Position numbers and translations under genes: made by a program
Shown here: in pieces, positions 8,995 through 34,726 of the stretch
Position numbering within the stretch: position 1 is the first letter of the stretch
How the letters are laid out: each line of letters opens with the position of its first letter
The notes under the pieces: generated by a model
The model's input: only the letters and a program-made list of their open reading frames with translations
Database searches by the model: none
What the model was told of the DNA's origin: nothing
Assembly: GCA_016193395.1 (NCBI GenBank)
Contig: JACPSH010000015.1
Location: 37,858-101,857 of the forward strand
DNA: 64,000 bases
Direction of reading: 5' to 3'
DNA from: Gammaproteobacteria bacterium
GTDB lineage: Bacteria; Pseudomonadota; Gammaproteobacteria; Eutrophobiales; Eutrophobiaceae

Positions 8995-9040
8995 TGATGC
9001 AAAAGTCCGACCATGGACTTTTGCATCACGCTGTTAGCAT
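8995..9040. repeat. 45-bp palindromic motif, copy 1 (overlaps the stop codon of the ADP-forming ACS gene)
   Basis: GATGCAAAAGTCCGACCATGGACTTTTGCATCACGCTGTTAGC has an 11-bp stem, TGCAAAAGTCC/GGACTTTTGCA. Confidence 0.75.
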
Positions 9041-11358
9041 TTGCTTTTCACGATCAGCGCATCCAGCGCCAGTACTCCGCTCGCACCCGCCCGCAACGGA
9101 TTGATATCCAACTCCTGGATCACCGGCTGCTCAACCAGCAGGCGCGAGATCGCGAGCAACGCCCGGATGATCGCTTGCTTGTCGACCGGCGGGCTGCCGC
9201 GCCAGCCATCCAGCAGGACCCGTGCCTTCAGCTCGGTGAGCATTTCCGCCGCATCCGCCTCGTCGAGCGGCACCAGCCGCATCGTGACGTCTTTCAGCGC
9301 TTCCGCCTGGGTACCCCCCATGCCGAGCAGTACCGCCGGACCGAATACCGGATCGCGAAGCCCGCCGACGATAAGATCGAGACCGGCGTTCGCCATCTTT
9401 TCGATCAGGTACGCGCGTTCGCGCAAAGGCGGGATCGCGTCGATCCGGCCGAGCGCCGCGGCGAGTTGATCGGCATCGCGAATGTTCAGATGGACGCCTC
9501 CCATTTCCGTCTTATGCAGTATGTCCACGTCCAGTACTTTGATCACGACCGGTTTCCGCAATCGCGCGAACGCGGCGCGCGCTTTCTCGTGGCCAAGGCA
9601 AACCGCGGATTCTGGCACCGGGATACCGATGGCGCGCAACAGGTCCTTGCCCTGCGCCTCGTTCAGCGCGCCGGCAGGCAGCGATGGCATCGCGGCGGTC
9701 TGGGTTATGGCGTCATCCCGGCGTTGTTTACGGTACCGGCATCGCGCGTCGTCGACGACCGCGCGCATCGCGCGGGCGGCCCGCTCGGGAGACCGGAACG
9801 GCACGACGCCCAGTTCGGCGAGCTGCCGCGCGGTCATGCGCATATCGTTATCCTCGCCGGCGGTACCGTAGATGACGGGTTTTGTGAGTCGTGCCTGCCG
9901 TTCCTTGAATAGCGCAATCGGATCCAGCACGGTCGGTTCGTGCAGGACGAATATCAGGATGGCGTCGATGCCTTCCTCTGCGGCGATAATGTCGAGCACG
10001 TTCCCGAATTCCGGCGTCGGCCGGCCGGCGTCGACCGGGTTGTTGATGTAGTGCATCGGCGGCAGCTCGCGCGCGATCCGGGCAATGCCGTCGGCGCTGA
10101 GTTTCGGCACGTCGACGCCGATGGACTTCAACTGATCCAGCATCAGCAGCCCCGCGCCGGCCTGGCCGATCAGAACGCCGACGCCCGGCGCCGGTTTGGG
10201 CGGCAGCCGGATCAGCGAGAGCGCGCTCGCGGCGTCAACCAGATCGTTCGAATTTTCCGCGATGACCGCGCCGGCCTGCCGGAAGGCCGCGACTTTCAGG
10301 TCGTAGGATCCGACCAGATTGCCGGTATGCGACTGCGCGAAGGCGCCGATTTCGTTGCGCCCGATCGTCAATGCCACGACCGGTTTCCGATCCGTCGCGC
10401 GCCGGATCGATTCGAACAGCCGGCGTCCGTCGCGGAATCCCTCCAGGTACAGCGCAATCACGCGCGTGTGCTCGTCGTCGGCGAGGTAATCGATGACGTC
10501 CGCCGCGTCGACATCAACCGCGTTGCCGAGGCCGACCGTCAGGCTGACGCCGAAACCGTCATTCTCCAGCATGCAAGCCAGGATCAGGCTCATGCCGCCG
10601 CTTTGCGACACAACCGCGATGGGCCCGGGTCCTAACTTCTGGTAGGACACCGAGAAACTCGCGACGAGCCGTTGCGGCGGGGCGGCATATCCGCCGGTAT
10701 TCGGCCCCAACATGCGGATCCCCGTCTTCCGGCAGATGTCCGCCAACCTGTCCTGCAGGCGTTGCCCTTCCTCGCCACTTTCGCCGAAGCCGCCGCCCAT
10801 GATGATGGCGGCGCCGGCCTGGATCGACGCGGCCTCCTGCAACAGATCCGGGCACGCCGCGGCCGGCACGGCGAACAACACCAGATCGACCGGCACGCCG
10901 ATCGCGGTCAACGACGGATACACGGGATGGCCGAGGATCGTCGTCTCCCGCGGATTGACCGGGTAGATCGCGCCGGCATAACTCTCCAGCAGCTGGACCG
11001 CCATATAGCCGGCTTTCCCCGGCGTCGCAGAGGCGCCGACAATCGCGATCGAGCGTGGCCGGAAAAGGCATTCGAGACCGTCTTTTTTCGTCATGACGCG
11101 GCTAGGATAATCGAAACCGGAGCGGCGGCGGGCGCGAGTGGAGCGGTCGATTGCCTCGTGGGCGATGTTGACCCCGCCGGACGGCAGTCCCTCGAGCTGC
11201 AAACGCGCATCCGTCCAGGAGAACTCTCGGCATGTCTGCGAGTAGTCATCCGGGTTCGGCACCACCTTCAGCGCCGCGGCAGTCTTGCGGATGGGATCCC
11301 AGACCATTGATTTCGTTTCCAGATTCGCAAGGACTATCACCGAAGGCAGGCACACCAT
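9034..11358 (-). CDS. Acetate--CoA ligase (ADP-forming) family acyl-CoA synthetase (fused alpha/beta; CoA-binding + ATP-grasp)
   Basis: The sequence ...CLFRPRSIAIVGASATPGKAGYMAV... is a CoA-binding domain and ...VIKVLDVDILHKTEMGGVHLNI... is an ATP-grasp domain. The architecture is typical of NDP-forming ACS. The start is uncertain: an in-frame Met at 11094 (MTKKDG...) precedes the first conserved domain, and the 88 residues upstream resemble an ANL-ligase N-terminus (see findings). Confidence 0.8.
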   Translation of the reverse strand: MVCLPSVIVLANLETKSMVWDPIRKTAAALKVVPNPDDYSQTCREFSWTDARLQLEGLPSGGVNIAHEAIDRSTRARRRSGFDYPSRVMTKKDGLECLFRPRSIAIVGASATPGKAGYMAVQLLESYAGAIYPVNPRETTILGHPVYPSLTAIGVPVDLVLFAVPAAACPDLLQEAASIQAGAAIIMGGGFGESGEEGQRLQDRLADICRKTGIRMLGPNTGGYAAPPQRLVASFSVSYQKLGPGPIAVVSQSGGMSLILACMLENDGFGVSLTVGLGNAVDVDAADVIDYLADDEHTRVIALYLEGFRDGRRLFESIRRATDRKPVVALTIGRNEIGAFAQSHTGNLVGSYDLKVAAFRQAGAVIAENSNDLVDAASALSLIRLPPKPAPGVGVLIGQAGAGLLMLDQLKSIGVDVPKLSADGIARIARELPPMHYINNPVDAGRPTPEFGNVLDIIAAEEGIDAILIFVLHEPTVLDPIALFKERQARLTKPVIYGTAGEDNDMRMTARQLAELGVVPFRSPERAARAMRAVVDDARCRYRKQRRDDAITQTAAMPSLPAGALNEAQGKDLLRAIGIPVPESAVCLGHEKARAAFARLRKPVVIKVLDVDILHKTEMGGVHLNIRDADQLAAALGRIDAIPPLRERAYLIEKMANAGLDLIVGGLRDPVFGPAVLLGMGGTQAEALKDVTMRLVPLDEADAAEMLTELKARVLLDGWRGSPPVDKQAIIRALLAISRLLVEQPVIQELDINPLRAGASGVLALDALIVKSKC

Positions 11359-11360
11359 GC

Positions 11361-11374
11361 TTGATCCCGATCAT
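11361..11374 (-). promoter_or_regulatory. FNR-like box TTGATcccgATCAt abutting the first ATG of the ADP-forming ACS ORF
   Basis: It is a 9/10 match. Its position is only consistent with a promoter if translation starts downstream (Met 11307 or 11094). Confidence 0.35.
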
Positions 11375-11633: not shown

Positions 11634-12323
11634 ATGCGTGCCTGGCGTATTTTCTCGGATCGCATAGAGGCCGGACAGGATCTGGCAAAGGCGCTGGCCG
11701 TACACCGCGGCCGACCGGACGTGGTCGTGCTCGGACTGCCCCGGGGCGGCGTGCCGGTGGCGTTCGAGGTAGCCCGCTTTCTGGGGGCGCCGCTGGATGT
11801 ACTGATTGTGCGCAAGCTCGGTGTACCCGGGCATACCGAACTCGCCATGGGGGCCATCGCCACGGGCGGCATCCGCCTGCTGAACGACGAGGTCATCCAG
11901 GCACTGCAGATCCCGATGGAACAGATTGACCGGGTCGCCGCGCAGGAGCAGCGCGAAATGTCGCGGCGCGAAATGGCCTACCGCGGCGACCGGCCGCCGC
12001 TGGACCTGCGTGGCCATGTCACCATCGTCGTGGACGACGGCATGGCCACGGGTTCCACCATGCGCGCGGCCGTGCAGGCCCTGCAGCGGCGCAACGCGTC
12101 GAAGATCGTCGTCGCCGTTCCCCATGCGCCCGCCGACACGGTCGGAGAGTTGCGCGCGATGGGCGCGGAAGTGGTGTGCCTGGAAATGCCCGAGCCCTAT
12201 TTTTCCGTTGGATCGTGGTATCGGGAGTTTCCGCAGGTCGACGATGCCGAGGTCAGAAATCTCATGAAGAAGGCCGGGCGGCGGGCGTTGAAGAGCGGGA
12301 GAGCAGCCGGCGGGCAAACTTAG
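11634..12323 (+). CDS. Phosphoribosyltransferase family protein
   Basis: Translation: MRAWRIFSDRIEAGQDLA...VVLGLPRGGVPVAFEVARFLGAPLDVLIVRKLG...TIVVDDGMATGSTMRAA... The PRTase PRPP-binding motif VVDDGxATGST is present. Confidence 0.7.
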   Translation: MRAWRIFSDRIEAGQDLAKALAVHRGRPDVVVLGLPRGGVPVAFEVARFLGAPLDVLIVRKLGVPGHTELAMGAIATGGIRLLNDEVIQALQIPMEQIDRVAAQEQREMSRREMAYRGDRPPLDLRGHVTIVVDDGMATGSTMRAAVQALQRRNASKIVVAVPHAPADTVGELRAMGAEVVCLEMPEPYFSVGSWYREFPQVDDAEVRNLMKKAGRRALKSGRAAGGQT

Positions 12324-12889
12324 CCGACGACGTGATGTTTGCCGACGACGCTGATCGACGTCGCCTGCGGCCCGGCTTCCCCCTGCTCTTCGTTGAAGCG
12401 CACCTCCGCGCCGATTTTCAGGTTGCCGAAGGCGGCGTTGATCAGGCTGTGGCGGTGAAAATACACGAGCCGGCCATCCGGTGTCGCCAGCCTCCCGAAA
12501 TTCTTTTCGGGCCAGAGTTCCGCAATGCGGCCGTGCAGCACCGGTTCGCGCGTCTTGACGTCCCCGCGACGGCGGCGCATGTAATCCTCCAGTTGCCGCG
12601 CGACGGCGTTGAACGCGTCCCGAACTGCCACGTAGACGTCCTCGTGCGCGTGGTGCCCACCGGGACTGCGCTTCACCACGATTTCCTCGCCGGGCACCGT
12701 GACATCGATCCGGATGTGATAGAGATTGCCCTTGTGGTGGTGCCGGTGCGGCGCCTCCACCATTACGCGGCAGCGCATGATCTGGTCACAGAACTTATCG
12801 AGCTTGTCCGTGCGCTCGCGGATGCGGGCCTCCACGGCCGCCGAGGGTTTAAGGTTACGGAAACTGATCTCCAGCGGGACCGATGCCAT
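12320..12889 (-). CDS. Ribosome hibernation promoting factor (HPF/RaiA, S30AE) fused to a C-terminal cold-shock-like domain
   Basis: The N-terminal ~110 aa (ISFRNLKPSAAVEARIRERTDKLDKF...YVAVRDAFNAVARQLEDY) match HPF/YfiA. The C-terminal ~65 aa (HGRIAELWPEKNFGRLATPDGRLVYFHRHSLI...LKIGAEVRFNEEQGEAGPQATSISV) follow the CspA pattern G-I-x-WF-x-KGFGFI...G-DVFVH-S-I...G-V-F...G-KGP-A. Confidence 0.65.
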   Translation of the reverse strand: MASVPLEISFRNLKPSAAVEARIRERTDKLDKFCDQIMRCRVMVEAPHRHHHKGNLYHIRIDVTVPGEEIVVKRSPGGHHAHEDVYVAVRDAFNAVARQLEDYMRRRRGDVKTREPVLHGRIAELWPEKNFGRLATPDGRLVYFHRHSLINAAFGNLKIGAEVRFNEEQGEAGPQATSISVVGKHHVVG

Positions 12890-13001
12890 GGACGTCCTCC
12901 AGCACGCGGCGTTGCGCGGCGACTACCGGACAGAGCATAACGTCATCGGCGCCGGGGGGAATGATCCCGGTCAAGTCCGGATCGCGGCGCGGTTTGCAGG
13001 A

Positions 13002-13970
13002 TCAGCGTTGTCGGTCGACAAAGTAACGCAGCCCGCGCAGGGTCGGCGAATCGCATGTCATCAGAAACGTCGGGATCGCTTCCAGGTAGGAACGGTAGCG
13101 GCCCTTGTCGACGAACCGCTGCCTGAAACGCGACGCGTTCAGCTGCGCCCGAAGTTCGGGAAGAATGCCGCCGGCCAGGAAGATGCCGCCGGTGGCGCCC
13201 AGGGACAGGGCGAGGTCGCCGGCCACCGTACCCAGCAGGGCAAAAAAGGCGTCCAGCGCTTCTACGGCATGAAGATCTTCGCCCGAGATCGCGCGCCGGC
13301 TGATCTCGGGTGCGGCGGGCGCCGGTTGCATCGCGGCACCCGGGCCACCGGCTACCAGGCGGTACAGGTTTTCGATTCCGGGCCCCGAAAGCGCACGCTC
13401 CGCGGAGACGTGGCCGAATTCCTGCTCCAGCCCTTCCACCATCCCGCGTTCCCGTCGGTCACGGGACGGCAGCGTGACATGCCCGCCTTCGCCTGCAATC
13501 GGGATCCAACCCGGCCCGGACTTCACCAGGCCGGACACGCCAAGTCCGGTTCCAGGACCGAGCACGCCGATGTTGCCATCGGGCACGGACCGGCCCGTGC
13601 CGATCTGGACCCGATCCGCAGGCCCGAGCGAAGGCACGGCAAGCGCCGCGGCGCACATGTCGTTGATCAGGTGCACGGCCTCAAACCGGAACTGTCCTCT
13701 GAGTTCCGCCGCCTCCAGGCGCCAGCCGAGATTCGTCAGCGTTACGCTTTCGCCTGACACCGGCCCGGCCACCGCGAATGCCGCCGTATGAGGCGTGCGA
13801 CCCCGGCAGCGTTCCGCCAGGAACGCGGCGAGGATCGCCGCGACGCCGCTATGCCGGGCATTTTCGACTACAAATGGGGGGGGCATGCCCTCACCCGGAA
13901 TGGAGAGGGCAAGGCGAGTATGGGTGCCCCCGATATCCCCGAGCAGTACAGGCGAGTGGATTGCATTCAT
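13002..13970 (-). CDS. glk: Glucokinase
   Basis: The N-terminus LLGDIGGTHTRLALS matches the Glk motif LVGDVGGTNARFAL. The length (322 aa) is typical for bacterial Glk. Confidence 0.85.
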   Translation of the reverse strand: MNAIHSPVLLGDIGGTHTRLALSIPGEGMPPPFVVENARHSGVAAILAAFLAERCRGRTPHTAAFAVAGPVSGESVTLTNLGWRLEAAELRGQFRFEAVHLINDMCAAALAVPSLGPADRVQIGTGRSVPDGNIGVLGPGTGLGVSGLVKSGPGWIPIAGEGGHVTLPSRDRRERGMVEGLEQEFGHVSAERALSGPGIENLYRLVAGGPGAAMQPAPAAPEISRRAISGEDLHAVEALDAFFALLGTVAGDLALSLGATGGIFLAGGILPELRAQLNASRFRQRFVDKGRYRSYLEAIPTFLMTCDSPTLRGLRYFVDRQR

Positions 13971-14041
13971 TCAGGCATGGGCCGGTAATGAAAAACTAAT
14001 CATACGCCGGCCGGTCACGGGGGTGTCCGGACGCCGGGTTT

Positions 14042-14058
14042 AGCTGATGTTTTCAGCT
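14042..14058 (+). promoter_or_regulatory. Inverted repeat AGCTGA-N5-TCAGCT ~70 bp upstream of fnr (candidate operator)
   Basis: It is a perfect 6-bp-arm palindrome in the glk/fnr divergent region. A wider imperfect inverted repeat (TAGCTGAT...ATGAGCTA) surrounds it. Confidence 0.3.
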
Positions 14059-14127
14059 CCCTGCGGATATGAGCTAAAATCGGCATGGACCGCCCGCTCC
14101 GGGCCGCCTGTACGGAAACGACCGCAA

Positions 14128-14871
14128 ATGGATGTACACGAACTAAAAATCTCCTGCCAGAAGTGCCGGCTCAGCGAGCTGTGCCTGCCGTATGGCCTGG
14201 AGTCAGAGGAGCTGGATCGCCTGGAGCATATCGTTCAGCGCCCGGCGCCGCTGCGGCGCGGCGAGGTCCTGTATCGCGCCGGCGGATCCTTCCATGCCAT
14301 CTATGCGGTCCGTTCCGGGGCCCTTAAGATTTTCTCCGGCTCGGAAGACGGGCACGAACAGATTTTGGGTTTTTATCTGCCCGGCGAACTGCTCGGCCTG
14401 GACGGCATGGACAAGGACCTCCACAAGTGCACCGCCGTGGCGCTCGAGACGAGTTCCGTATGCACCTTGCCGTTCAACCAGTTGAGCGTGCTGTGCGAAA
14501 AGATCCCGGGACTGCAGAAGCGCCTGTTCCGGCTCATCGGCCGGGAGATCGGCGTCGAACACGAATTGCTGCTGATGATGGGACAGAAGGACGCCGAGGA
14601 AAGGCTCGCCATCTTCCTGGTCACGCTGGCCGCCCGCTTCAAGAGGCGCGGCTACTCCCAGAGTGAATTCCGGCTGCCGATGAGCCGCCACGATCTCGCC
14701 AATTACCTCGGACTCACGCCCGAGACCGTGAGCCGGCTGTTTGGTCGTTTTCGCAAAAACGGGCTGATAGAGACCAACCGCAGTCTGGTCAAGCTCCTGG
14801 ACATGTCGCGTCTTGTAACGTTGTGCGCCGGCCCCGAGGATGCGGGCCGCCTGGCCGCCGTCATGAACTGA
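14128..14871 (+). CDS. fnr: Fnr/Anr-type oxygen-sensing CRP-family transcriptional regulator
   Basis: The N-terminal Cys cluster ISCQKCRLSELCLP plus an internal Cys in ...ETSSVCTLP correspond to the four [4Fe-4S] ligands of FNR. A C-terminal HTH (...DLANYLGLTPETVSRLFGRF...) is present. Overall similarity to E. coli FNR is close. Confidence 0.85.
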   Translation: MDVHELKISCQKCRLSELCLPYGLESEELDRLEHIVQRPAPLRRGEVLYRAGGSFHAIYAVRSGALKIFSGSEDGHEQILGFYLPGELLGLDGMDKDLHKCTAVALETSSVCTLPFNQLSVLCEKIPGLQKRLFRLIGREIGVEHELLLMMGQKDAEERLAIFLVTLAARFKRRGYSQSEFRLPMSRHDLANYLGLTPETVSRLFGRFRKNGLIETNRSLVKLLDMSRLVTLCAGPEDAGRLAAVMN

Positions 14872-14894
14872 GTCGCATCCTGTCGCGGACATTG

Positions 14895-14908
14895 TTGATC
14901 CAGATCAG
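14895..14908 (+). promoter_or_regulatory. Near-consensus FNR box TTGATccagATCAg upstream of the CBS-pair gene
   Basis: It is a 9/10 match to TTGAT-N4-ATCAA. It lies ~115 bp upstream of ATG 15017 and directly downstream of the fnr stop. Confidence 0.5.
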
Positions 14909-15016
14909 CAACCGTTCTTCCCTTTCGACCGATACTTTCCCTGCAGGATAAGCCGACCGGCCACAATGCCGGGCCGGGCGTTTCCGCCAGTCTGAACCAT
15001 TCTGGGAAGAGGGAAC

Positions 15017-15472
15017 ATGAGCGTAGGCCATGTCTGCAACCGCGAAGCCATCGTGGCCAATCGCGGCGACAGCCTCCTCGACATCGCGAAGCTGATGCGC
15101 AAGTACCACGTCGGCAGCGTCATTATCGTGGAACCCCACGGCGAACGTGTGCGCCCGATCGGGATCATTACCGACCGGGACCTGGTGGTCGAAATCCTGG
15201 CGGAGGAGCTGGACAACTCCACCGTTGCGCTGGAGGACGTCATGAGTCCGACCTTGATCACGGCCGAGGAGGACGACGACGTGTATGACGTCATCGAGGC
15301 CATGCGCAACCACGGCGTAAGGCGCGTGCCTGTCGTCGATCAGGAGGGATTCCTGGTCGGCGTCCTGGCCATGGATGACCTGCTCTGGAACCTGTCGCAG
15401 GAACTGGGGAACATCGTGGCCCTGATCGAACGTCAGACCGGGGCCGAGGCGAAGCGTCAGGCGCACGTGTAG
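15017..15472 (+). CDS. CBS-domain pair protein
   Basis: Two CBS repeats are present (...HVGSVIIVEP... and ...HGVRRVPVVDQEGFLVGVLAMDDL...). An FNR box lies about 115 bp upstream. Confidence 0.8.
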   Translation: MSVGHVCNREAIVANRGDSLLDIAKLMRKYHVGSVIIVEPHGERVRPIGIITDRDLVVEILAEELDNSTVALEDVMSPTLITAEEDDDVYDVIEAMRNHGVRRVPVVDQEGFLVGVLAMDDLLWNLSQELGNIVALIERQTGAEAKRQAHV

Positions 15473-15482
15473 GGAAGCTCTT

Positions 15483-15530
15483 TCCTTCATTTTCCAATCG
15501 CTTACGCGACTGGAAAATGGCCATACGTCC
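15483..15530. repeat. Related inverted repeat CCATTTTCCAATCGC-ttac-GCGACTGGAAAATGG followed by a second hairpin; terminator-like, between the CBS gene and the convergent kinase-like gene
   Basis: It is nearly identical in pattern to hairpin 3 of the 33826 cluster (CATTTTTCAATCGC...GCGATTGAAAAATG). A second hairpin, CCATAC-gtccat-GTATGG, follows. Confidence 0.6.
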
Positions 15531-15655
15531 ATGTATGGCGGCCGGCGCTCACACTGCGTCGCCGCCGGCGAAACGCCCCTGCCCTCTTCATTGCAATGCC
15601 GGTCACGGCGCATTCCTTTTGATGACGACGCGGACTGAAAGCCGTCCGATCCGCG

Positions 15656-17269
15656 TCACCGTTCCGGCACGAGCTTCGACGAGATCTGCCCGCACAGGCT
15701 GTCCATCTCGACGCCGGCTTCCGTGTCGATCCGAATGCGGGCGGCCTGCTCGCTGCCGTCCAGAGGTTCCAGGTTCGCGATCTGGTAGTCCAGCACCCGC
15801 GCATCGGCTTCCGATGCGTCGCCGCCGACTTTACGCCGCTCGTTCATTCGCCGGCGCAGCGTCGCCTCCCGGGCGCTGACCTCGAGAATGACCCAGGGGG
15901 CGCCCCGCTCGCGGGCAACACCTTCCAGGCACGCGCGCTGCTCGCGACGAAGACAGGCCGCATCGATGATGACGCAATGTCCGGCCTCCAGCACCTCCGC
16001 CGCGATCTGCGCGAGCCGGCCATATGTCGCCCCGGTCGCGGCTTCGGAATAGATCCCTGCCCCGGTTGCGGATCCCGACGCCTCCAGCGCGGCAAGACCA
16101 TGCAGACGCTTGCGCTCGATATCCGAACGGACGCGGACAGCGCCGAGCCGCTCGAGCAAATCTTGAGTCACGGAAGTCTTGCCGCTCCCGGACAGACCGA
16201 AAGCGATCAGGAGCGCCGCCGTGCGCGGGCCCGAATAGCCGCGGGCAAGGGACAGGTGAATCTGCCGCGACGCGGTTTCCGCGGCGCGCGCCTCCGCCTT
16301 GAACCCAGGCTGCTGCAGACGGATCGACGCGATTTTCGCGCGTACCAGGGCGCGGTACGCAAGATAGAAATTCAGCACCCCGAGCCCGCCATAATCACCG
16401 CTGTGCTCCAACCAGGCGTTGAGGAACCGCCAGGCCGGTCCCGTGCCGGCGCGCGCGCGCAAGTCCATCATCAGAAATGCGACTTCGTCGATTACGTCGA
16501 TCCAGCGCAAGCCCTCGGAAAACTCTACGCAATCGAAGATGACGAGTTCTCCGTCGTGAAGAACGATATTGCCGAGATGCATGTCGCCGTGGCACTCGCG
16601 TATGCCGCCGTGCTCCTGCCGCGCCTGGAACCGGGCGTGCAGAGCGTGGCACTGAACCCGTGTCCATTCCTCCAATTGCCGAAGTGATACGCGTTCATCA
16701 CCGGCCAAGGCGGGATCCGCCGCGAGTTGGCTCAAGTTGGCAAGCGCGGGATCGCGGATGCTTTCGATCGATCCGTGACGGGAGCCCGCGTCGGCGATGG
16801 TGGCGGACGCATGGAACCGGGCAATCTTCTCCGCAAGGCGATCGACCAGATCCGGAGTCAGCTCTTCGCGCGCCGCAATGCGGTCCAATTCCATTTCACG
16901 GGGAAACTGCAACATTCGAACCGCGTATTCCAGGACCGGCCCACTCCCGCCCAGGACGGGACGCTCCTGCGGGCCGGTGATGGACACGACCTCCAGGTAA
17001 TGCCGCGGGGCGAGCCGCCGGTTCAGTCTCAGTTCCTCTTCGCAGTAGTGCTTCCTTCGCGGGAGCGTCGTGAAATCGAGAAAACCGAGGTCCAGCGGCT
17101 TCTTGAACTTGTAGGCGTACGGCCCGGTCAACAGGATGATGGAGATGTGCGTTTCCACGATCGCCATCGTCGGCGCCGGGTGGTTAAAGCGCGCGTGATC
17201 GCGCACCGATTCGACCAGTCGCCTGAGCGCTGCAACAGGGTCCGCCTCCCGTGGATCCATCATGGCCAT
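15656..17269 (-). CDS. Bifunctional protein: aminoglycoside-phosphotransferase-like kinase domain + P-loop (zeta-toxin/AAA_33-like) ATP-binding domain
   Basis: The central region carries the APH/eukaryotic-like kinase catalytic motif HGDMHLGNIV...IFD. The C-terminal region carries a Walker A motif, LIAFGLSGSGKTSV. Confidence 0.7.
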   Translation of the reverse strand: MAMMDPREADPVAALRRLVESVRDHARFNHPAPTMAIVETHISIILLTGPYAYKFKKPLDLGFLDFTTLPRRKHYCEEELRLNRRLAPRHYLEVVSITGPQERPVLGGSGPVLEYAVRMLQFPREMELDRIAAREELTPDLVDRLAEKIARFHASATIADAGSRHGSIESIRDPALANLSQLAADPALAGDERVSLRQLEEWTRVQCHALHARFQARQEHGGIRECHGDMHLGNIVLHDGELVIFDCVEFSEGLRWIDVIDEVAFLMMDLRARAGTGPAWRFLNAWLEHSGDYGGLGVLNFYLAYRALVRAKIASIRLQQPGFKAEARAAETASRQIHLSLARGYSGPRTAALLIAFGLSGSGKTSVTQDLLERLGAVRVRSDIERKRLHGLAALEASGSATGAGIYSEAATGATYGRLAQIAAEVLEAGHCVIIDAACLRREQRACLEGVARERGAPWVILEVSAREATLRRRMNERRKVGGDASEADARVLDYQIANLEPLDGSEQAARIRIDTEAGVEMDSLCGQISSKLVPER

Positions 17270-17326
17270 GCCTTCCCAAATCCTTGCGGTAGACCTGCTT
17301 CAGCGGCGCGCGGCTTCGCGCCGCGA

Positions 17327-17340
17327 TTGATCCGGATCAA
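17327..17340. promoter_or_regulatory. Perfect consensus FNR box TTGATccggATCAA in the divergent region between the kinase-like gene (minus) and the host-attachment/archease operon (plus)
   Basis: Read directly from the sequence. The site is ~118 bp upstream of ATG 17452 and ~64 bp upstream of the minus-strand start at 17269. Confidence 0.65.
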
Positions 17341-17451
17341 GAATCGAATGCCGCGAACGACCACCGCTGAAATACCATTCGAATTGTCGCGTAGCATAAT
17401 GCATCCTGTATCGGCATCCGTGCGCGGCATGGCCGCAAGGGAGCGCAGACG

Positions 17452-17883
17452 ATGGAGCTGACCTGGGTAGTCGTTGCGGAAAGCAGCCGCGCGCGGATTT
17501 TTGTTTTCGAGGGATTGCAGTCGCCGCTGCGCGAGGTGGAAGATCTGGTCAACCCCGAAGCCCGGGCACATGAACGCGATCTCAAGTCCGATCGGCAGGG
17601 ACGCACCATCGACAGCACCGGTCAACGGCGTCATGCTAAACAGCCTGAAGTCAGCCCAAAGGAACAGCGCGTGATCGAGTTTGCGAAATCGGTCGCCGAG
17701 CGCGTCGAGCGGGCGCGGGCACAGGGCATGTTCAAGCGCCTCATCCTCGTCGCCGCACCCGGGTTCCTGGGCCTTTTGCGCGGGAGCCTCGGCGACGCGA
17801 CTCGCCAGTGCATCACGCGGGAGATACACAAGAATCTGGTGCGCAAGGACGAGAAAGCCATACGGAAGTCGATGAAACTCTGA
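17452..17883 (+). CDS. Host-attachment family protein (DUF-type, ~140 aa)
   Basis: The N-terminus MELTWVVVAESSRARIFVFE is the hallmark start (TWVVVAD-x-RARIF) of 'protein required for attachment to host cells' family members. Confidence 0.65.
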   Translation: MELTWVVVAESSRARIFVFEGLQSPLREVEDLVNPEARAHERDLKSDRQGRTIDSTGQRRHAKQPEVSPKEQRVIEFAKSVAERVERARAQGMFKRLILVAAPGFLGLLRGSLGDATRQCITREIHKNLVRKDEKAIRKSMKL

Positions 17884-17979
17884 GGGCCCTGCCGCTGATC
17901 CAGGGTCGCGGCGGATCCGGCCCCACTCTAGACATGCGCGCCGGAGGCGGCCCTGATCCAGATCAATCGACCCATCACG

Positions 17980-18447
17980 ATGGAATCCATCCCCGCCGGA
18001 CACGAGACCGGCAGCATCGGTGAGGGCGCGCCGCCGCGCTGGGAACATTTCGAGCACAAGGCGGATATCGGCGTGCGCGGCTTTGGCCGCACGCTCGCCG
18101 AATCCTTCGAACAGGCGGCGCTTGCGCTTACGGCGGTCGCCACCGATCCCGCCTCGGTGCAGGCCTCCGACATAGTGCAAGTCGAATGCCGCGCCGCGGA
18201 CACGGAACTGTTGCTGGCGGACTGGTTGAACACGATTATTTTCGAAGCGTCCACGCGCGGCATGCTGTTCGGGCGTTTCGCGGCGCAAATCAACGATGGC
18301 CATCTGCGCGGACAGTTGTACGGTGAACCGGTGGATCGGTTGCGCCACCAGCCGGCGGTCGAGGCGAAGGGCGCCACCTATACAGAGCTGCGCGTCGCGC
18401 GGCAACTCGACGGTCTCTGGGTCGCCCAGTGCGTTATTGATGTCTGA
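17980..18447 (+). CDS. Archease (RtcB activator/chaperone)
   Basis: The motifs FEHKADIGVRGFGRTLAESFEQAA... and the C-terminal ...AKGATYTELRV...WVAQCVIDV match the archease fold. It sits immediately upstream of rtcB. Confidence 0.75.
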   Translation: MESIPAGHETGSIGEGAPPRWEHFEHKADIGVRGFGRTLAESFEQAALALTAVATDPASVQASDIVQVECRAADTELLLADWLNTIIFEASTRGMLFGRFAAQINDGHLRGQLYGEPVDRLRHQPAVEAKGATYTELRVARQLDGLWVAQCVIDV

Positions 18448-18640
18448 AGCGCCGATAGGTTGCGGGATCGATGGCCGCCAATCGAGTAGCTTGCTGTATT
18501 CATGTCGCAATGGCCGCCTATCCGGGGGCGGGTCGGCCCGGCGTTCATCCGGCGGCGATGAGCGGCGCGCGGGCCAGGGACGGTGCAGCGCGACGCGACC
18601 GCAGCGAGCGCGGCCGGGACGCAGCGCGAGCGGGAGCCGG

Positions 18641-18676
18641 ATGAATCCGGCCGGACCGCCCGTTGCGAGGGACTAA
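18641..18676. repeat. Stand-alone copy of the 'tail' module ATGAATCCGGCCGGACCGCCCGTTGCGAGGGACT between archease and rtcB
   Basis: It is near-identical to 39466-39500. It is preceded by a degenerate GC-rich stretch (18560-18640) and followed by an AT-rich TTGAAAAA element. Confidence 0.7.
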
Positions 18677-18679
18677 CAG

Positions 18680-18755
18680 GTTGTTGAAAAATGGCGGCGC
18701 ATCCTGCACCGCTTTATCAGGCCGTTGAAAAGGCTTTTTCAACAGCCTGCTAACG
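18680..18755. repeat. AT-rich 'TTGAAAAA' element (family copy)
   Basis: GTTGAAAAATGGCGGCGCATCCTGCACCGCTTTATCAGGCCGTTGAAAAGGCTTTTTCAACAGCCTGCTA. It is homologous to 33926-33990 (...ATTGAAAAATGCCGGTACATCCCTGCACCG...CGAAAAACGCTGTTTTTCAACAGCCTGCTA). Confidence 0.75.
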
Positions 18756-18853
18756 GAAGCGGGCACCCGGAGTCCGCCTAGAACGCAGGGATTTTTCAAA
18801 CGAGTACCCCGTAAGCCGCCTTGGGTGGATGATTCGTTGACTGGAGCCGAGAA

Positions 18854-20284
18854 ATGCGCCTCGACAACCTGGAACGCGTATCGGATATTTGCTGGCGGCT
18901 TGAGCCACACGGCGCGATGCGCGTGCCCGTCATTATTTATGGCGACGAGGCGTTGCTGCGGGGGATGGACGACAAGGTGGCCGAACAGGCCGCGAATGTC
19001 ACCATGCTGCCCGGGATCGTGAATGCCGTGTACGCGATGCCGGACGCACACTGGGGCTACGGCTTCCCCGTCGGCGGCGTGGCCGCCTTCGACGCCGACG
19101 AGGGCGGAGTCGTCTCCGCGGGCGGCGTGGGTTTCGATATCTCCTGCGGCGTGCGCACCCTGCATACCGGCCTGCGCCGCGAGCAACTGGAACCGGTCAA
19201 GACGCGGTTGGCCGAGGAACTGTTCCGGACCATCCCCGTCGGACTCGGCAGCACCGGCCGCATCGATCTCGGCGCCGCGGAGATGGATGCGATGCTCCGG
19301 GGCGGTGCGCGCTGGGCGGTGGAGCAGGGTTATGGCGAAGAGCGCGACCTGGAACGGATCGAGGAGCGTGGCCGGATGGCCGGGGCCCGCCCCGAGCAGG
19401 TGTCCGCCCATGCCAAGCAGCGACAGCAGCGGGAAATGGGCACGCTCGGATCGGGCAATCACTACCTCGAAGTGCAGCAGGTTGTCGATATACTCGATCC
19501 CGCCGCGGCGGGCGCATTCGGGCTCGGCAGGGGCGACGTGGTCGTCAGCATCCATTGCGGCTCGCGCGGGCTCGGACACCAGATCGGAACCGATTTCCTC
19601 AAGGCCATGGTCACGGCCGCCCCGCGCCACGGCATCGTCCTGCCGGATCGCGAACTCGCCTGCGCGCCATTGTCATCGGAACTGGGCCAGAACTACCTGG
19701 GCGCCATGCGCGCCGCGATCAACTGCGCGCTTGCCAACCGCCAGATCATCACGCACCTTGCGCGCGAAGTCTTCCGGCGCATGCTGCCCACAGCGCGGCT
19801 CGATCTGTTTTACGATGTTTCGCACAATACCTGCAAACTGGAAGACCATCGCGTGGCCGGGCGCAACCGGCGCCTGTACGTGCATCGAAAGGGCGCCACG
19901 CGCTCGTTCGGCACCGGCCATGCCGACCTGCCGGAGGCCTTCCGCGAAGCCGGCCAGCCGGTATTGATCGGCGGGTCGATGGGCACCGCCTCGCACATCC
20001 TCGCGGGCGATCCCGACAACGACGAGAAGTCGTTCGCCTCCGCGTGCCACGGCGCCGGCCGGAGCATGAGCCGCCGCCAGGCATTGAAGACCTGGCAGGG
20101 GCGGAGCGTGGTGGACGAGCTGGCTGGCCGCGGCATTATCGTGCGCAGCCCTTCGCTGCGCGGCGTCGCGGAAGAAGCCCCGGGCGCGTACAAGGACGTG
20201 GACGCGGTAGTGGCCGCAACGGAACGGGCGGGTCTCGCGCGGCGCGTTGCGCGGCTGGAGCCGCTGCTGTGCATAAAGGGATGA
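18854..20284 (+). CDS. rtcB: RNA-splicing ligase RtcB (3'-phosphate/5'-hydroxyl nucleic acid ligase)
   Basis: The motifs PDAHWGYGFPVGGV, GGVGFDISCGVR and HNTCKLE...HRKGATRSF match RtcB active-site regions. The length is 476 aa. Confidence 0.9.
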   Translation: MRLDNLERVSDICWRLEPHGAMRVPVIIYGDEALLRGMDDKVAEQAANVTMLPGIVNAVYAMPDAHWGYGFPVGGVAAFDADEGGVVSAGGVGFDISCGVRTLHTGLRREQLEPVKTRLAEELFRTIPVGLGSTGRIDLGAAEMDAMLRGGARWAVEQGYGEERDLERIEERGRMAGARPEQVSAHAKQRQQREMGTLGSGNHYLEVQQVVDILDPAAAGAFGLGRGDVVVSIHCGSRGLGHQIGTDFLKAMVTAAPRHGIVLPDRELACAPLSSELGQNYLGAMRAAINCALANRQIITHLAREVFRRMLPTARLDLFYDVSHNTCKLEDHRVAGRNRRLYVHRKGATRSFGTGHADLPEAFREAGQPVLIGGSMGTASHILAGDPDNDEKSFASACHGAGRSMSRRQALKTWQGRSVVDELAGRGIIVRSPSLRGVAEEAPGAYKDVDAVVAATERAGLARRVARLEPLLCIKG

Positions 20285-25178: not shown

Positions 25179-25194
25179 GTCGAAGAGCGGCGAT

Positions 25195-25315
25195 TGACGG
25201 ACGGGTGGCACCGGGGACTCCTGTTCCGCGCGCAGCGAGAGGGCCTCTCCAGCGGCTGGTTCAAGCGAGCACGGACAGGAGTGCCCGGTGACAGGACCCG
25301 TCCGCTGACCCGCGT
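25195..25315. repeat. GC-rich imperfect-palindromic extragenic element between convergent glgP and malQ
   Basis: GGACGGGTGGCACCGGGGACTCCTGTTCCGCGCGCAGCGAGAGG...GAGCACGGACAGGAGTGCCCGGTGACAGGACCCGTCCG. The outer arms are reverse complements (GGACGGGTGGCACCGGG / CCCGGTGACAGGACCCGTCC). Confidence 0.8.
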
Positions 25316-26757: not shown

Positions 26758-26787
26758 ACTGCCGGAGGGGCCCGCTGGTGCTCCGCG

Positions 26788-29773: not shown

Positions 29774-29954
29774 CCGAGCGCCGGGTGCGGCGGCTGTCGG
29801 TCGGCCGCGCGCGACTTCCGTTCAGGCTACGGAACCGGGCCGGGCGCATGCTGACCCAGGTCAATATGGTAACGATTACCGGCGATTATTCTAGGCATCG
29901 TACCCCGGAACGGCATAACGAAAACGTGCGGGGTCGACAATTGAGGAGGCGATC

Positions 29955-32141: not shown

Positions 32142-32236
32142 CCGCCCGCCGCGCATCGCGTCCGCCGGCGGCGGTACGGAACGCAACCGTTCCGCGGCGG
32201 ACGCGCGCGCGCGCCCGGACGGCGCCGCGGATCCTG

Positions 32237-34174: not shown

Positions 34175-34726
34175 TCAGGGCAGGCGCGAGATGAACTCCG
34201 CGGGGGGCTTGCGCAGGGTCGCGGGGATCTCGGCGGGTATCCCATACCAGAAAATGCCGACGACGCGCTCCCTGGCGGGATCGATGCGCGTGATCTCGAA
34301 AAAGCGCGGATCGCGTATGACTTCCCCGGTCGTCCATTTGACGCCGATGCCGCGGTCCCAGAGAAAGAGCATCATGTTCTGGGCCGCGCAGCAACACGCC
34401 GCATAGTCCTCCCAGCACCGCACTTCATCGGCCTCCCGCTGGCAGGTCAGCAACAGCCAGCCCGGGATGGCGCGCCAGCGCCGCAGTTTCATCTCCGCGG
34501 CCCGTTCGCCCTTGCCGGCCCTCACCCGTTCCGCGTTGAGCAGGCATATGGCTTCCACAGTTTCCGGTCCCAGCAGGTAAAAGCGCCACGGTTGCGTGAG
34601 GTAATGGTTTGGCGCCCACGACGCGTGCGCGATCGCATCCAGGATGACGACCTGCGGCGGCGCCCCGGGCCGGAACTCGTGGATGGTCCGGCGGCCGCGG
34701 ATCGTGTCAGCGATGGTTGCAATCAT
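34175..34726 (-). CDS. Nitroreductase-family protein
   Basis: MIATIADTIRGRRTIHEFRPGAPP... is the nitroreductase N-terminal (R/S)xR pattern. The length is ~183 aa. Confidence 0.7.
   Translation of the reverse strand: MIATIADTIRGRRTIHEFRPGAPPQVVILDAIAHASWAPNHYLTQPWRFYLLGPETVEAICLLNAERVRAGKGERAAEMKLRRWRAIPGWLLLTCQREADEVRCWEDYAACCCAAQNMMLFLWDRGIGVKWTTGEVIRDPRFFEITRIDPARERVVGIFWYGIPAEIPATLRKPPAEFISRLP

What the first reader, a model, noticed from the sequence alone, without database searches (positions are those of the whole stretch)
12320..12889. HPF/RaiA ribosome-hibernation domain fused to a cold-shock (CspA-like) domain
The N-terminal 110 aa match short HPF/YfiA. The C-terminal 65 aa follow the cold-shock-domain pattern (KGFGFI-like KNFGRL, G-DVFVH-like GRLVYFHRHSLI, a C-terminal GEAGPQATSISV block).

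This differs from the usual long-HPF dimerisation domain. A single protein would combine ribosome binding with single-stranded nucleic-acid binding. It could tether mRNA or rRNA during hibernation, or act as a cold- or stationary-phase-specific translation modulator.
Basis: partly seen in the sequence, partly recalled or inferred. Interest (0 to 1): 0.5.

Follow-up and report, generated by a model that had tools for sequence, protein, structure and literature searches.

The report
HPFcold ribosome hibernation factor gene
The gene really does encode a ribosome-hibernation domain fused to a cold-shock domain, but this architecture was published in 2025-2026 as "HPFcold", whose cold-shock domain holds and shields the 3' end of 16S rRNA, so this is one more member of a known family, here apparently switched on by low oxygen.

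Summary
Window 12320-12889 (-) is a 189-aa ORF. Residues 7-108 match Pfam Ribosomal_S30AE (59.9 bits). Residues 120-181 match Pfam CSD (27.9 bits against a cutoff of 27). There is no long-HPF dimerisation domain. An AlphaFold model and Foldseek confirm an HPF/RaiA fold followed by a CspA-like barrel.

The protein is 44% identical over its whole length (E=1e-47) to PDB 9T0Z/9TZE chain 9. That chain is Coxiella burnetii CBU_0020, "HPFcold" (Stuart et al., Nat Commun 2026). The fusion class was also reported by Chan et al. (bioRxiv 2025). In the solved structure the N-domain blocks the decoding centre, and the CSD sits in the mRNA exit channel holding the anti-Shine-Dalgarno 3' tail of 16S rRNA.

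Three additions come from this work:
- A footprint-conserved FNR class II promoter lies upstream, next to an fnr gene, in an FNR-box-rich island. This points to low-oxygen control rather than cold control.
- The window's clade carries a co-varying swap (E124/R133 in place of R/F) at the published cytosine-recognition pair.
- RNA-repair genes (RtcB, archease, RtcA) and a CBS-pair gene recur as neighbours.

Interest is low.

The parts
12320..12889 (-). HPFcold coding sequence (189 aa, including the TAA stop)
   Evidence: ORF list. Pfam S30AE plus CSD. E=1e-47 to PDB 9t0z chain 9. Identical protein P0001 is present in NCBI.
12566..12871 (-). N-terminal S30AE / HPF-RaiA domain (residues 7-108; beta-alpha-beta-beta-beta-alpha). 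It carries the clade's His-rich loops HRHHHKG (48-54) and HHAHED (79-84).
   Evidence: Pfam 59.9 bits. Model strands and helices E6-11, H17-33, E39-50, E54-65, E68-74, H85-108. Foldseek matches RaiA/HPF with TM to target of 0.86-0.94. Conservation.
12539..12565 (-). Flexible basic linker (residues 109-117)
   Evidence: No secondary structure at 109-117, and pLDDT is below 50 at 111-114. Coxiella HPFcold has a six-residue linker (PMC13392368).
12347..12532 (-). C-terminal cold-shock domain (residues 120-181; five-stranded barrel). Y143 is the equivalent of Coxiella Y142, and the swapped pair is E124/R133.
   Evidence: Pfam CSD 27.9 bits. Csp hits in the PDB by sequence and by fold, with TM to target of 0.83-0.89 and rmsd 1.3-2.0 A. 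Residue mapping.
12332..12340 (-). Clade-specific C-terminal K184-H185-H186 tail, absent from Coxiella HPFcold
   Evidence: K184 is invariant and H185/H186 are nearly invariant in 50 close relatives. A KHH tail occurs in only 16 of 117 diverse representatives.
12895..12900 (-). Shine-Dalgarno GGAGGA, 5 nt before the ATG
   Evidence: Read directly from the sequence.
12934..12939 (-). -10-like hexamer TATGCT, invariant in all five aligned upstream regions
   Evidence: Alignment A2 and the L088 sequence. The generic sigma-70 scan did not call a promoter here. That is expected for an activator-dependent promoter without a -35 element, which is an inference.
12961..12974 (-). FNR/CRP-family box TTGACCGGGATCAT, centred 78 nt before the ATG and exactly 21 nt upstream of TATGCT (class II geometry)
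   Evidence: The box is identical in L085, L086 and L087 while the flanks diverge, and L088 has TTGATCAGGATCAT at the same spacing. FNR-type boxes are enriched upstream of HPFcold genes in 81 loci.
14128..14871 (+). fnr gene (247 aa from the internal Met), the probable regulator
   Evidence: NCBIfam NF008365 Fnr scores 259.9 bits against a cutoff of 228. Pfam finds cNMP_binding, HTH_Crp_2 and Crp. A C-x2-C-x5-C motif plus a later Cys are visible in the translation. The gene is called as 247 aa on other contigs.

Best explanation
The gene encodes a member of the HPFcold family of ribosome hibernation factors.

Mechanism, inferred by homology to the solved Coxiella burnetii complex (PDB 9T0Z/9TZE):
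- The N-terminal S30AE domain binds the 30S subunit in the decoding centre and tRNA cleft. It excludes A-site tRNA and mRNA, so translation stops.
- A short flexible linker lets the C-terminal cold-shock domain reach the mRNA exit channel. There it wraps the single-stranded anti-Shine-Dalgarno 3' tail of 16S rRNA and shields it from ribonucleases.
- Because the long-HPF dimerisation domain is absent, the result should be protected 70S monomers and not 100S dimers.

In this lineage the gene is most likely transcribed from its own FNR-activated class II promoter. The factor would then be made when oxygen runs out. Neighbouring FNR-box genes would be induced alongside it: a CBS-pair protein, a baeRF12-archease-RtcB RNA-repair operon, an ADP-forming acetyl-CoA synthetase and glycogen catabolism genes.

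What is shown here: the ORF, both domains by sequence and by fold, full-length homology to the solved protein, the family's size, the conserved promoter footprint, and the Fnr-family assignment of the adjacent regulator.

What is inferred: ribosome binding, anti-SD binding by this particular CSD, 70S hibernation, and oxygen control.
For: Domains: Pfam S30AE 59.9 bits and CSD 27.9 bits, with no Ribosom_S30AE_C hit.

Homology: E=1e-47 to 9t0z_9 / 9tze 'Ribosome hibernation promoting factor', aligned 3-181 against 7-180, 44% identity. The paper's data-availability statement identifies 9T0Z as the C. burnetii 30S-HPFcold complex.

Fold: the model has pLDDT 83.6, with beta-alpha-beta-beta-beta-alpha, a linker, then five strands. 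Foldseek matches the N-domain to RaiA/HPF and the C-domain to CspE, Bc-Csp and CspA.

Published mechanism: PMC13392368, sections read. Class description: bioRxiv 2025.11.04.686544.

Contact residues: the Y142 equivalent (Y143) is invariant in the clade and is Tyr in 109 of 117 diverse representatives.

Promoter: the box and the -10 hexamer are conserved at fixed 21-nt spacing in four relatives of 77-85% protein identity. Boxes with at most 1 mismatch occur upstream of HPFcold in 12 of 81 loci, against 1.2% of other 200-bp windows in the same loci (P=3e-10). The window holds 7 such boxes where 0.77 are expected. The adjacent regulator passes the Fnr model cutoff.
Against: Three of the four rRNA contacts named for Coxiella HPFcold differ here: F132 becomes R133, R123 becomes E124, and R177 becomes S178. 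The exact binding mode of this CSD is therefore not established.

The CSD score is borderline in Pfam.

The window holds no rRNA gene, so the organism's anti-SD sequence could not be checked.

The window's FNR box has two mismatches to TTGAT-N4-ATCAA. Boxes of that quality occur in about 10% of random 200-bp windows, so the case rests on the footprint and its position. Boxes of the CRP/FNR family do not by themselves say which paralogue (FNR, Dnr or FixK type) binds.

No expression or binding data exist for this protein.
Confidence: 0.8

Rival explanations
1. The protein still docks in the decoding centre, but in this clade the rewired CSD (E124/R133, H145, KHH tail) binds something other than the anti-SD tail. 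That could be an mRNA leader kept on the hibernating ribosome, or another single-stranded rRNA segment. This would make it a functional variant of HPFcold.
For: Three of the four published contact residues differ. The 124/133 pair co-varies as a unit: (R/K,F) occurs 71 times and (E,R) 7 times among 117 representatives. The clade has its own invariant basic and His residues.
Against: The linker length and the domain order are the same as in Coxiella. The Tyr that stacks on U1534 is invariant. Arg can both stack on and hydrogen-bond a cytosine, so the swap may preserve the same contact, which is an inference. The anti-SD is the nearest single-stranded RNA to a CSD tethered at this site in the solved structure.
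Confidence: 0.1
2. It is a cold-induced translation modulator. On this view the CSD reflects cold-shock regulation or RNA-chaperone activity at low temperature.
For: The C-domain is a true CSD by sequence and fold.
Against: No cspA-type thermosensing leader or any other Rfam family is present in the window. The inferred leader is only about 38 nt. The conserved upstream element is an FNR-type box. The neighbours are anaerobic-metabolism, glycogen and repair genes. In the published work the name HPFcold refers to the domain and not to a temperature response.
Confidence: 0.05
3. It is a long-HPF-type factor that dimerises ribosomes into 100S particles, with the C-terminal domain being a divergent dimerisation domain.
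For: The length is similar to long HPF. Chan et al. note that such proteins are often annotated as long HPF.
Against: There is no Ribosom_S30AE_C match at E<=10. The C-domain superposes on cold-shock proteins at rmsd 1.3-2.0 A. The only long-HPF match (5ngm) aligns at rmsd 13.4 A. Coxiella HPFcold was seen on 70S monomers.
Confidence: 0.02
4. It is an artefactual fusion of two adjacent genes, caused by a frameshift or a misassembly.
For: None found.
Against: The same uninterrupted two-domain ORF of 186-189 aa is found in thousands of independent assemblies, and one member has been solved as a single chain.
Confidence: 0.01

Closest known systems
HPFcold (Coxiella burnetii CBU_0020; PDB 9T0Z, 9TZE; Stuart et al., Nat Commun 2026, PMC13392368). 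Legionella pneumophila Q5ZW81 is listed as another member.
   Same: Both have the same two-domain order (PF02482 then PF00313), a short linker and a size of about 20 kDa, and both lack a dimerisation domain. The two proteins are 44% identical over their full length. The Tyr that stacks on U1534 is conserved.
   Different: The window protein has E124/R133 where Coxiella has R123/F132, and S178 where Coxiella has R177. It keeps the RNP2 His (H145), where Coxiella has Asn. It has a 5-residue His-rich insertion before helix 2 and a KHH C-terminal tail. Among 117 diverse representatives, Phe at position 133 (97) and Arg/Lys at position 124 (74) are the rule, so the window's clade is the unusual one at that pair. 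At N144 and R177 it is Coxiella that is unusual. The window gene has an FNR-type promoter, and neither paper mentions regulation of this kind.
Chimeric HPF isoforms (HPF-Csp, HPF-SigE, HPF-CBS) of Chan et al., bioRxiv 2025.11.04.686544
   Same: This gene is an HPF-Csp chimera. It lies outside any rpoN/hpf-type operon, in a variable stress-gene neighbourhood, next to an aeRF1/Balon-superfamily gene (baeRF12).
   Different: The neighbouring factor here is a 143-aa core-only baeRF_family12 protein and not a full-length Balon. Coexistence with a canonical HPF could not be checked from a 64-kb window. No second S30AE ORF is present in the window.
Short HPF / RaiA (YfiA) of E. coli and relatives
   Same: The N-domain has the same fold (TM to target of 0.81-0.94 for 4hei, 2rql, 8rd8_D and 4v8i) and matches the same Pfam family.
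   Different: It falls below the NCBIfam yfiA equivalog cutoff (32.2 against 40.9 bits). It carries an extra RNA-binding domain. Short HPF needs RMF to cover the anti-SD region (established knowledge, as summarised). Here a single polypeptide would do both jobs, which is an inference.
Long HPF (Gram-positive type, for example S. aureus and L. lactis)
   Same: It has the same N-terminal domain and a similar overall length.
   Different: The C-terminal dimerisation domain (Ribosom_S30AE_C) is absent, so 100S formation by that route is not expected.
Stand-alone cold-shock proteins (CspA, CspB, CspE)
   Same: The C-domain has the same five-stranded OB barrel. The aromatic or His residues at the F15, F27 and H29 positions of B. 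subtilis CspB are kept as F131, Y143 and H145 (alignments; CspB numbering from established knowledge).
   Different: It scores far below every Csp equivalog cutoff (at most 26 bits against cutoffs of 115 or more). The W8, F17 and F30 equivalents are Glu, Arg and Arg. It is fused to another domain rather than free-standing.
Mycobacterial RafH (Rv0079 / MSMEG homologue), a hypoxia-induced dual-domain HPF
   Same: It is a non-canonical HPF whose expression is tied to oxygen limitation, and its N-domain matches by fold (8wi7_w).
   Different: It has a different C-terminal domain and a different regulator (DosR, from established knowledge). There is no homology beyond the S30AE domain.

Membership tests
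HPFcold | N-terminal sigma-54-modulation / S30AE domain (PF02482) | tested here: met
   Pfam 59.9 bits against a cutoff of 23.7, residues 7-108. The fold is confirmed.
HPFcold | [quoted passage not shown] | tested here: met
   Pfam 27.9 bits against a cutoff of 27.0, which is borderline. It is backed by PDB Csp sequence hits at E of about 5e-4 and by Foldseek TM to target of 0.83-0.89 with rmsd 1.3-2.0 A.
HPFcold | Full-length homology to the structurally defined member (CBU_0020, 9T0Z chain 9) | tested here: met
   E=1e-47 in one stretch, 3-181 against 7-180. Identity is 44%.
HPFcold | Two domains joined by a short linker, with no long-HPF dimerisation domain | tested here: met
   The linker is residues 109-117, with low pLDDT. 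There is no PF16321-type hit at E<=10.
HPFcold | Conservation of the residues that contact the anti-SD / 16S rRNA in 9T0Z (R123, F132, Y142, R177) | tested here: inconclusive
   Y142 maps to Y143 and is conserved. F132 maps to R133, R123 to E124 and R177 to S178. The 124/133 change is a co-varying swap seen in 7 of 117 representatives, so it may be compensatory.
HPFcold | Conserved basic surface of the S30AE domain that binds 16S rRNA | tested here: inconclusive
   R24, R90 and R98 are nearly invariant or invariant in the clade, and R90 is Arg in 85 of 117 representatives and in Coxiella. The paper's residue list (its Supplementary Fig. 5b) was not available as text, so no one-to-one check was made.
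HPFcold | Binds the 30S decoding centre with the CSD on the anti-SD, giving protected 70S monomers | not testable with these tools
   This needs biochemistry or cryo-EM. It is inferred from homology only.
Chimeric HPF isoforms (Chan et al. 2025) | Coexists with a canonical HPF encoded at a separate conserved hpf locus | not testable with these tools
   Only 64 kb of the genome is available. No second S30AE ORF is present in the window.
Long HPF | C-terminal dimerisation domain (Ribosom_S30AE_C) | tested here: not met
   There is no hit at E<=10, and the C-domain folds as a CSD.
Short HPF / YfiA equivalog (TIGR00741) | Score above the curated equivalog cutoff, in a single-domain protein of about 95-113 aa | tested here: not met
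   It scores 32.2 bits against a cutoff of 40.9, and it is 189 aa with a second domain.
CspA-family cold-shock proteins | Stand-alone protein of about 70 aa with intact RNP1 (KGFGFI) and RNP2 (VFVHF), scoring above the equivalog cutoffs | tested here: not met
   The best Csp model scores 26.3 bits against a cutoff of 120. RNP1 reads KNFGRL and RNP2 reads VYFHR. The domain is fused to another domain.
FNR-activated class II promoter (regulatory part) | TTGAT-N4-ATCAA-type box centred about 41 nt upstream of the transcription start, i.e. about 21 nt before a -10 hexamer | tested here: met
   TTGACCGGGATCAT, then 21 nt, then TATGCT. The arrangement is conserved in four relatives. The transcription start is inferred and not mapped.
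FNR-activated class II promoter (regulatory part) | An FNR protein with the [4Fe-4S] cysteine ligands encoded in the genome, and oxygen-dependent expression | tested here: inconclusive
   The regulator passes NCBIfam Fnr (259.9 against 228 bits) and shows C-x2-C-x5-C plus a fourth Cys. Oxygen-dependent expression is not testable here.

The most novel reading that the evidence does not exclude
In this gammaproteobacterial lineage, and in a sizeable fraction of other HPFcold carriers, HPFcold would be the ribosome-preservation arm of an FNR-controlled anoxic-survival programme.
- It would be co-induced with a CBS-pair protein. That protein is its immediate downstream operon partner in 7 other loci, and it recalls the archaeal CBS hibernation factors Dri and Hib.
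- It would also be co-induced with a baeRF12-archease-RtcB RNA-repair operon. The 16S 3' end would then be both shielded (by the CSD) and re-ligated if cut (by RtcB).
- The clade's E124/R133 swap would be a second, Arg-based way of reading the anti-SD cytosine.

None of this is stated in the two HPFcold papers. The pairing of hibernation factors with RtcB is, however, already known for Balon.
Probability: 0.35. Interest if true: 0.4.

Novelty: already known. Interest (0 to 1): 0.2.

Why it matters
The family itself matters. HPFcold combines in one chain what E. coli achieves with HPF plus RMF: it blocks the decoding centre and covers the anti-SD. It is found in pathogens such as Coxiella and Legionella. 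That case has already been made in print.

This window adds only incremental points. A very abundant environmental clade of HPFcold appears to be wired to oxygen limitation through FNR. That clade differs from the solved protein at the key cytosine-recognition pair. HPFcold genes often sit beside RNA-repair and CBS-pair genes.

These points give specific, cheap experiments for anyone working on HPFcold. They do not change the picture of what the protein is.

There is also a practical annotation point. The CSD scores at or below Pfam's threshold in many members, so pipelines label these proteins as plain HPF/RaiA.

Tried and rejected
- The long-HPF dimerisation domain was looked for in Pfam at E<=10 and is absent.
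- A generic sigma-70 promoter and terminator scan of 12200-14150 found no promoter. It found one weak terminator-like hairpin inside the glucokinase 3' end, which is not above shuffle expectation and so is uninformative.
- An Rfam gathering-threshold scan of the whole window gave zero hits. There is therefore no rRNA from which to read the anti-SD, and no cspA leader.
- Foldseek against the PDB could not return 9T0Z, because that library stops at 2026-04-08. The link to 9T0Z rests on the sequence search.
- My first strand choices for 14861-15613(-), 17260-18510(-) and 18545-19630(-) gave no Pfam hits. They turned out to be antisense shadows of the CBS-pair, baeRF12/archease and RtcB genes. In the same way, the second-largest 'neighbour cluster' was the antisense shadow of HPFcold itself.
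- A fixed, conserved gene neighbourhood across the family was looked for and not found. No neighbour family occurs in more than 15 of 82 loci, which agrees with the variable location reported by Chan et al.
- RtcB as an operon partner was rejected. The tightly adjacent cases are mostly convergent.
- baeRF12 as a general partner was rejected. It occurs in 0 of the 82 genome loci and only in the window and L088.
- A second HPF-type gene in the window was searched for by phmmer over six-frame ORFs. Only the gene itself was found.
Full report
**1. The observation.**
Window 12320-12889 on the minus strand is an intact ORF of 189 codons, running from ATG to TAA. A GGAGGA Shine-Dalgarno sequence lies 5 nt before the start. 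Codon-position GC is typical of real genes in this 64% GC window (GC3 0.83, GC2 0.40). Gene callers working on other contigs that encode the identical protein give the same 189-aa product.

Pfam places Ribosomal_S30AE on residues 7-108 (E=4.1e-16, 59.9 bits, cutoff 23.7). It places the cold-shock domain on residues 120-181 (E=2.1e-6, 27.9 bits, cutoff 27.0). Nothing resembling the long-HPF C-terminal domain appears even at E<=10.

NCBIfam agrees in kind. The protein falls below every equivalog cutoff: yfiA scores 32.2 against 40.9 bits, and CspE scores 26.3 against 120 bits. It is therefore neither a plain short HPF nor a plain Csp.

**2. Fold.**
An AlphaFold2 model was built on a 50-sequence alignment (mean pLDDT 83.6). 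It shows beta-alpha-beta-beta-beta-alpha (6-108), an unstructured low-confidence linker (109-117), and five beta strands (118-181).

Foldseek against the PDB matches the N-domain to RaiA, HPF and pY (8rd8_D, 4hei_A, 2rql, 4v8i; TM to target 0.81-0.94). It matches the C-domain to CspE, Bc-Csp, CspB and CspA (TM to target 0.83-0.89, rmsd 1.3-2.0 A). The only long-HPF alignment (5ngm) has rmsd 13.4 A.

**3. What it is.**
A sequence search of all PDB chains gives one outstanding hit: 9t0z chain 9 (also 9tze), 'Ribosome hibernation promoting factor', 183 aa, E=1e-47. It aligns in a single stretch from residue 3 to 181, with 44% identity.

The literature search found the source: Stuart et al., Nat Commun 2026;17:7049 (PMC13392368). 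Its data-availability section lists 9T0Z as 'C. burnetii 30S HPFcold' and 9TZE as the 70S complex. The paper describes CBU_0020 as a protein of about 20 kDa with a PF02482 domain, a six-residue linker and a PF00313 domain, and names it HPFcold.
- The N-domain occupies the 30S tRNA cleft and A site.
- The CSD occupies the mRNA exit tunnel.
- The anti-Shine-Dalgarno sequence at the 3' end of 16S rRNA wraps around the CSD.
- The CSD is held between the helices of bS21 and contacted by uS7.
- The authors argue that this shields the exposed 3' end from RNases in 70S monomers.

They cite Chan et al. (bioRxiv 2025.11.04.686544). That preprint had already reported HPF chimeras carrying Csp, SigE or CBS domains in place of the dimerisation domain. 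It found them often mis-annotated as long HPF, scattered by horizontal transfer, located at variable loci, coexisting with a canonical HPF, and often near Balon genes.

The window protein is therefore a member of a published family.

The family is large. The word-indexed search found 2591 relatives, and the best 120 are almost all 186-189 aa with both domains. In the exhaustive search, 351 clusters at 50% identity score E<=1e-30. At least 578 species-level genomes carry a relative, mostly gammaproteobacterial MAGs. Beta-, Alpha-, Delta- and Zetaproteobacteria, Binatia and Manganitrophaceae are also represented. The identical protein is already in NCBI as 'HPF/RaiA family ribosome-associated protein [Gammaproteobacteria bacterium]'. 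JGI names some relatives 'RaiA/cold shock CspA family protein'.

**4. How this member differs from the solved one.**
The paper's Supplementary Fig. 3 legend names four contacts:
- Y142 stacks on U1534.
- F132 stacks on C1535.
- R123 forms a pseudo-pair with C1535.
- R177 bridges the phosphates of G924-925 and C1530.

In the gap-free C-terminal alignment these map to window Y143, R133, E124 and S178.

Among 50 close relatives, Y143 is invariant. Position 133 is R/K in 45, position 124 is E/Q in 44, and position 178 is S/T in all 50.

Among 117 full-length representatives of 50%-identity clusters:
- Position 133 is Phe in 97 and Arg in 8.
- Position 124 is Arg/Lys in 74 and Glu in 13.
- The pair is (R/K,F) in 71, (E,R) in 7 and (E,F) in 2.

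The window's clade therefore carries a co-varying swap at exactly the pair that reads C1535 in Coxiella.

The Csp alignments put these two positions at the W8 and F17 positions of B. subtilis CspB. Those residues are neighbours on the nucleotide-binding face (established Csp structural knowledge). A compensatory Arg-based contact is thus plausible, but it is not shown.

At two other sites Coxiella is the odd one. It has Asn where 100 of 117 representatives, and the window, keep the RNP2 His (H145). Its R177 is shared by only 9 of 117.

The window's clade also has His-rich loops (HRHHHKG at 48-54 and HHAHED at 79-84, the latter within a 5-residue insertion relative to Coxiella). It has an invariant Cys40 and a K184-H-H tail. 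I have no function for these features.

**5. Regulation and context.**
The gene lies 112 bp downstream of glucokinase on the same strand. Its 3' end overlaps, in convergent orientation, that of a phosphoribosyltransferase gene.

Reading the upstream strand gives TTGACCGGGATCAT (12974-12961), then exactly 21 nt, then TATGCT (12939-12934), then GGAGGA and the ATG. This is the geometry of a class II FNR-dependent promoter, with the box centred about 41 nt before the inferred start. The geometry comes from established knowledge, and the start site is not mapped.

On its own a two-mismatch box is weak evidence. About 10% of random 200-bp windows in related loci contain one. Three results strengthen the case:
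- (a) The box is identical in three relatives of 81-85% protein identity while the flanking sequence diverges. A 77% relative has TTGATCAGGATCAT at the same 21-nt spacing, inside the end of its glucokinase gene. TATGCT is invariant in all five sequences.
- (b) Across 81 loci, boxes with at most 1 mismatch occur within 200 bp upstream of HPFcold in 14.8%, against 1.2% of other windows in the same loci (P=3e-10). With at most 2 mismatches the figures are 34.6% against 10.2% (P=3e-9). Box centres cluster 59-110 nt before the ATG, and the window's box is at 78.
- (c) The window contains 7 boxes with at most 1 mismatch where 0.77 are expected. All lie in the first 23 kb, and six of the seven are promoter-proximal.

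The adjacent divergent regulator passes the NCBIfam Fnr model (259.9 against 228 bits) and shows the C-x2-C-x5-C plus a fourth Cys pattern.

The surrounding genes fit survival without oxygen:
- ADP-forming acetyl-CoA synthetase, Zn-alcohol dehydrogenase, and acyl-CoA and thiolase genes.
- A complete glycogen set: glgP, malQ, GH57, glgC, glgB and glgA.
- An APH/AAA_33 protein and a CBS-pair protein.
- An apparent operon of baeRF_family12/Host_attach, archease, RtcB and PolX.

No cold-shock leader or other Rfam family is present.

I conclude that low oxygen, and not cold, is the likely signal. I put that at about 0.65.

**6. Neighbours across the family.**
Context is variable, as Chan et al. reported. 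Even so, in 82 non-redundant loci with flanks of at most 6 kb:
- At least one Rtc RNA-repair gene occurs in 21 loci (RtcB 11, archease 10, RtcA 9), in several phyla.
- A CBS-pair gene occurs in 15 loci.

Orientation matters here. The tightly adjacent RtcB genes are mostly convergent, so they are neighbours and not operon partners. The CBS-pair gene lies immediately downstream on the same strand in 7 loci and is the best candidate for a co-transcribed partner.

RtcB can re-ligate the MazF-cut 3' end of E. coli 16S rRNA (Temmel et al., PMC5416887; title and abstract seen). Linkage of hibernation factors with RtcB is already documented for Balon (PMC10901736). Linkage of baeRF1 families with HPF is also documented (PMC6514570). 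Neither HPFcold paper mentions Rtc, archease or FNR.

These are modest extensions of known themes. The loci are not phylogenetically independent, and I could not compute a proper genome-wide background for the Rtc co-occurrence.

**7. Verdict.**
However, the fusion is a published family with a solved structure, and this very protein is already in public databases with both domains precomputed. Novelty: already known. Interest: 0.2.

The residual interest lies in three things: the FNR wiring, the E124/R133 swap, and the CBS-pair and Rtc neighbourhood. Each is testable with simple experiments.

Noticed in passing
window 1477, 3766, 11361, 14895, 17327, 17953, 22612 (plus the 2-mismatch box at 12961-12974): FNR/CRP-family boxes (TTGAT-N4-ATCAA, at most 1 mismatch) are strongly enriched: 7 are found where 0.77 are expected, and 0 of 100 shuffles reach 7. 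All lie in the first 23 kb, and six of the seven are promoter-proximal. They precede cytochrome c/acyl-CoA synthetase, ADP-forming ACS, the CBS-pair gene, APH/AAA_33 with baeRF12 (divergent), archease and GlgP. This looks like an FNR-controlled low-oxygen island.
   Followed up: partly
window 17452-17883 (+), 17980-18447 (+), 18854-20284 (+), 20522-22225 (+): An apparent operon of baeRF_family12/Host_attach (143 aa, a core-only aeRF1/Balon-superfamily relative), archease, RtcB RNA ligase and a PolX-family polymerase. It is preceded by a perfect FNR box at 17327 and lies 4.5 kb from HPFcold. baeRF12 is also present in the 77%-identity relative L088, but in none of the 82 genome loci.
   Followed up: partly
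window 15017-15472 (+); loci L006, L009, L015, L018, L022, L045, L069: A 151-aa CBS-pair protein recurs near HPFcold in 15 of 82 loci. In 7 of them it lies immediately downstream on the same strand, 7-70 bp away, so it is probably co-transcribed. Archaeal CBS proteins (Dri, Hib) are hibernation factors, and HPF-CBS fusions exist according to Chan et al. The CBS-pair protein may therefore be a partner factor.
   Followed up: partly
loci L003, L008, L010, L015, L016, L023, L027, L034-L036, L038, L040, L042-L045, L050, L054, L065-L067: In 21 of 82 HPFcold loci, at least one RNA-repair gene (RtcB, archease or RtcA) lies within 6 kb. These loci come from Gamma- and Betaproteobacteria, Binatia and Manganitrophaceae. 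The adjacent RtcB genes are mostly convergent. PCMT (8 loci), DUF6763 (7), a phosphoribosyltransferase (6) and a nitroreductase (6) also recur.
   Followed up: partly
window 12320-12889 (-), residues 40, 48-54, 79-84, 184-186: The clade has conserved His-rich loops (HRHHHKG and HHAHED), an invariant Cys40 and a C-terminal KHH tail. The HHAH insertion and the tail are missing from Coxiella HPFcold. A metal-binding or pH-sensing role is conceivable but was not tested.
   Followed up: no
window 11634-12323 (+) and relatives L085, L087, L088, L089: A phosphoribosyltransferase-domain gene of about 230 aa converges on HPFcold, with the two stop codons overlapping by a few bases. This arrangement is conserved in all close relatives. 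The whole block APH/AAA_33 - CBS - fnr - glk - HPFcold - PRTase is syntenic.
   Followed up: partly
window 22644-33688, and 13002-13970 (-): A complete glycogen metabolism set lies beside the hibernation and repair genes. It comprises a GlgP-like phosphorylase with DUF3417, MalQ, a GH57 enzyme, GlgC, GlgB and GlgA, plus glucokinase directly upstream of HPFcold. Two other HPFcold loci (L001, L003) carry TreT-like and alpha-amylase-family genes instead.
   Followed up: no
window 9034-11358 (-): A fused ADP-forming acetyl-CoA synthetase (CoA_binding, Succ_CoA_lig and ATP-grasp_5 domains). The listed ORF starts only 3 nt from an FNR box at 11361, so the true start is probably further downstream or the box serves another gene.
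   Followed up: no
window 12176-12940 (+), 14861-15613 (-), 17260-18510 (-), 18545-19630 (-): Long antisense 'shadow' ORFs of 250-416 aa overlap real genes in this high-GC DNA and have no Pfam hits. The shadow ORF of HPFcold even forms its own cluster across 25 loci in a naive ORF clustering.
   Followed up: yes
window 34752-36389 (-), 57562-58449 (+), 34175-34726 (-), 43806-44363 (+): Further along the window are a Ser/Thr protein kinase, an FHA-domain protein, a nitroreductase (a family that also recurs near HPFcold elsewhere) and a RidA/L-PSP protein.
   Followed up: no
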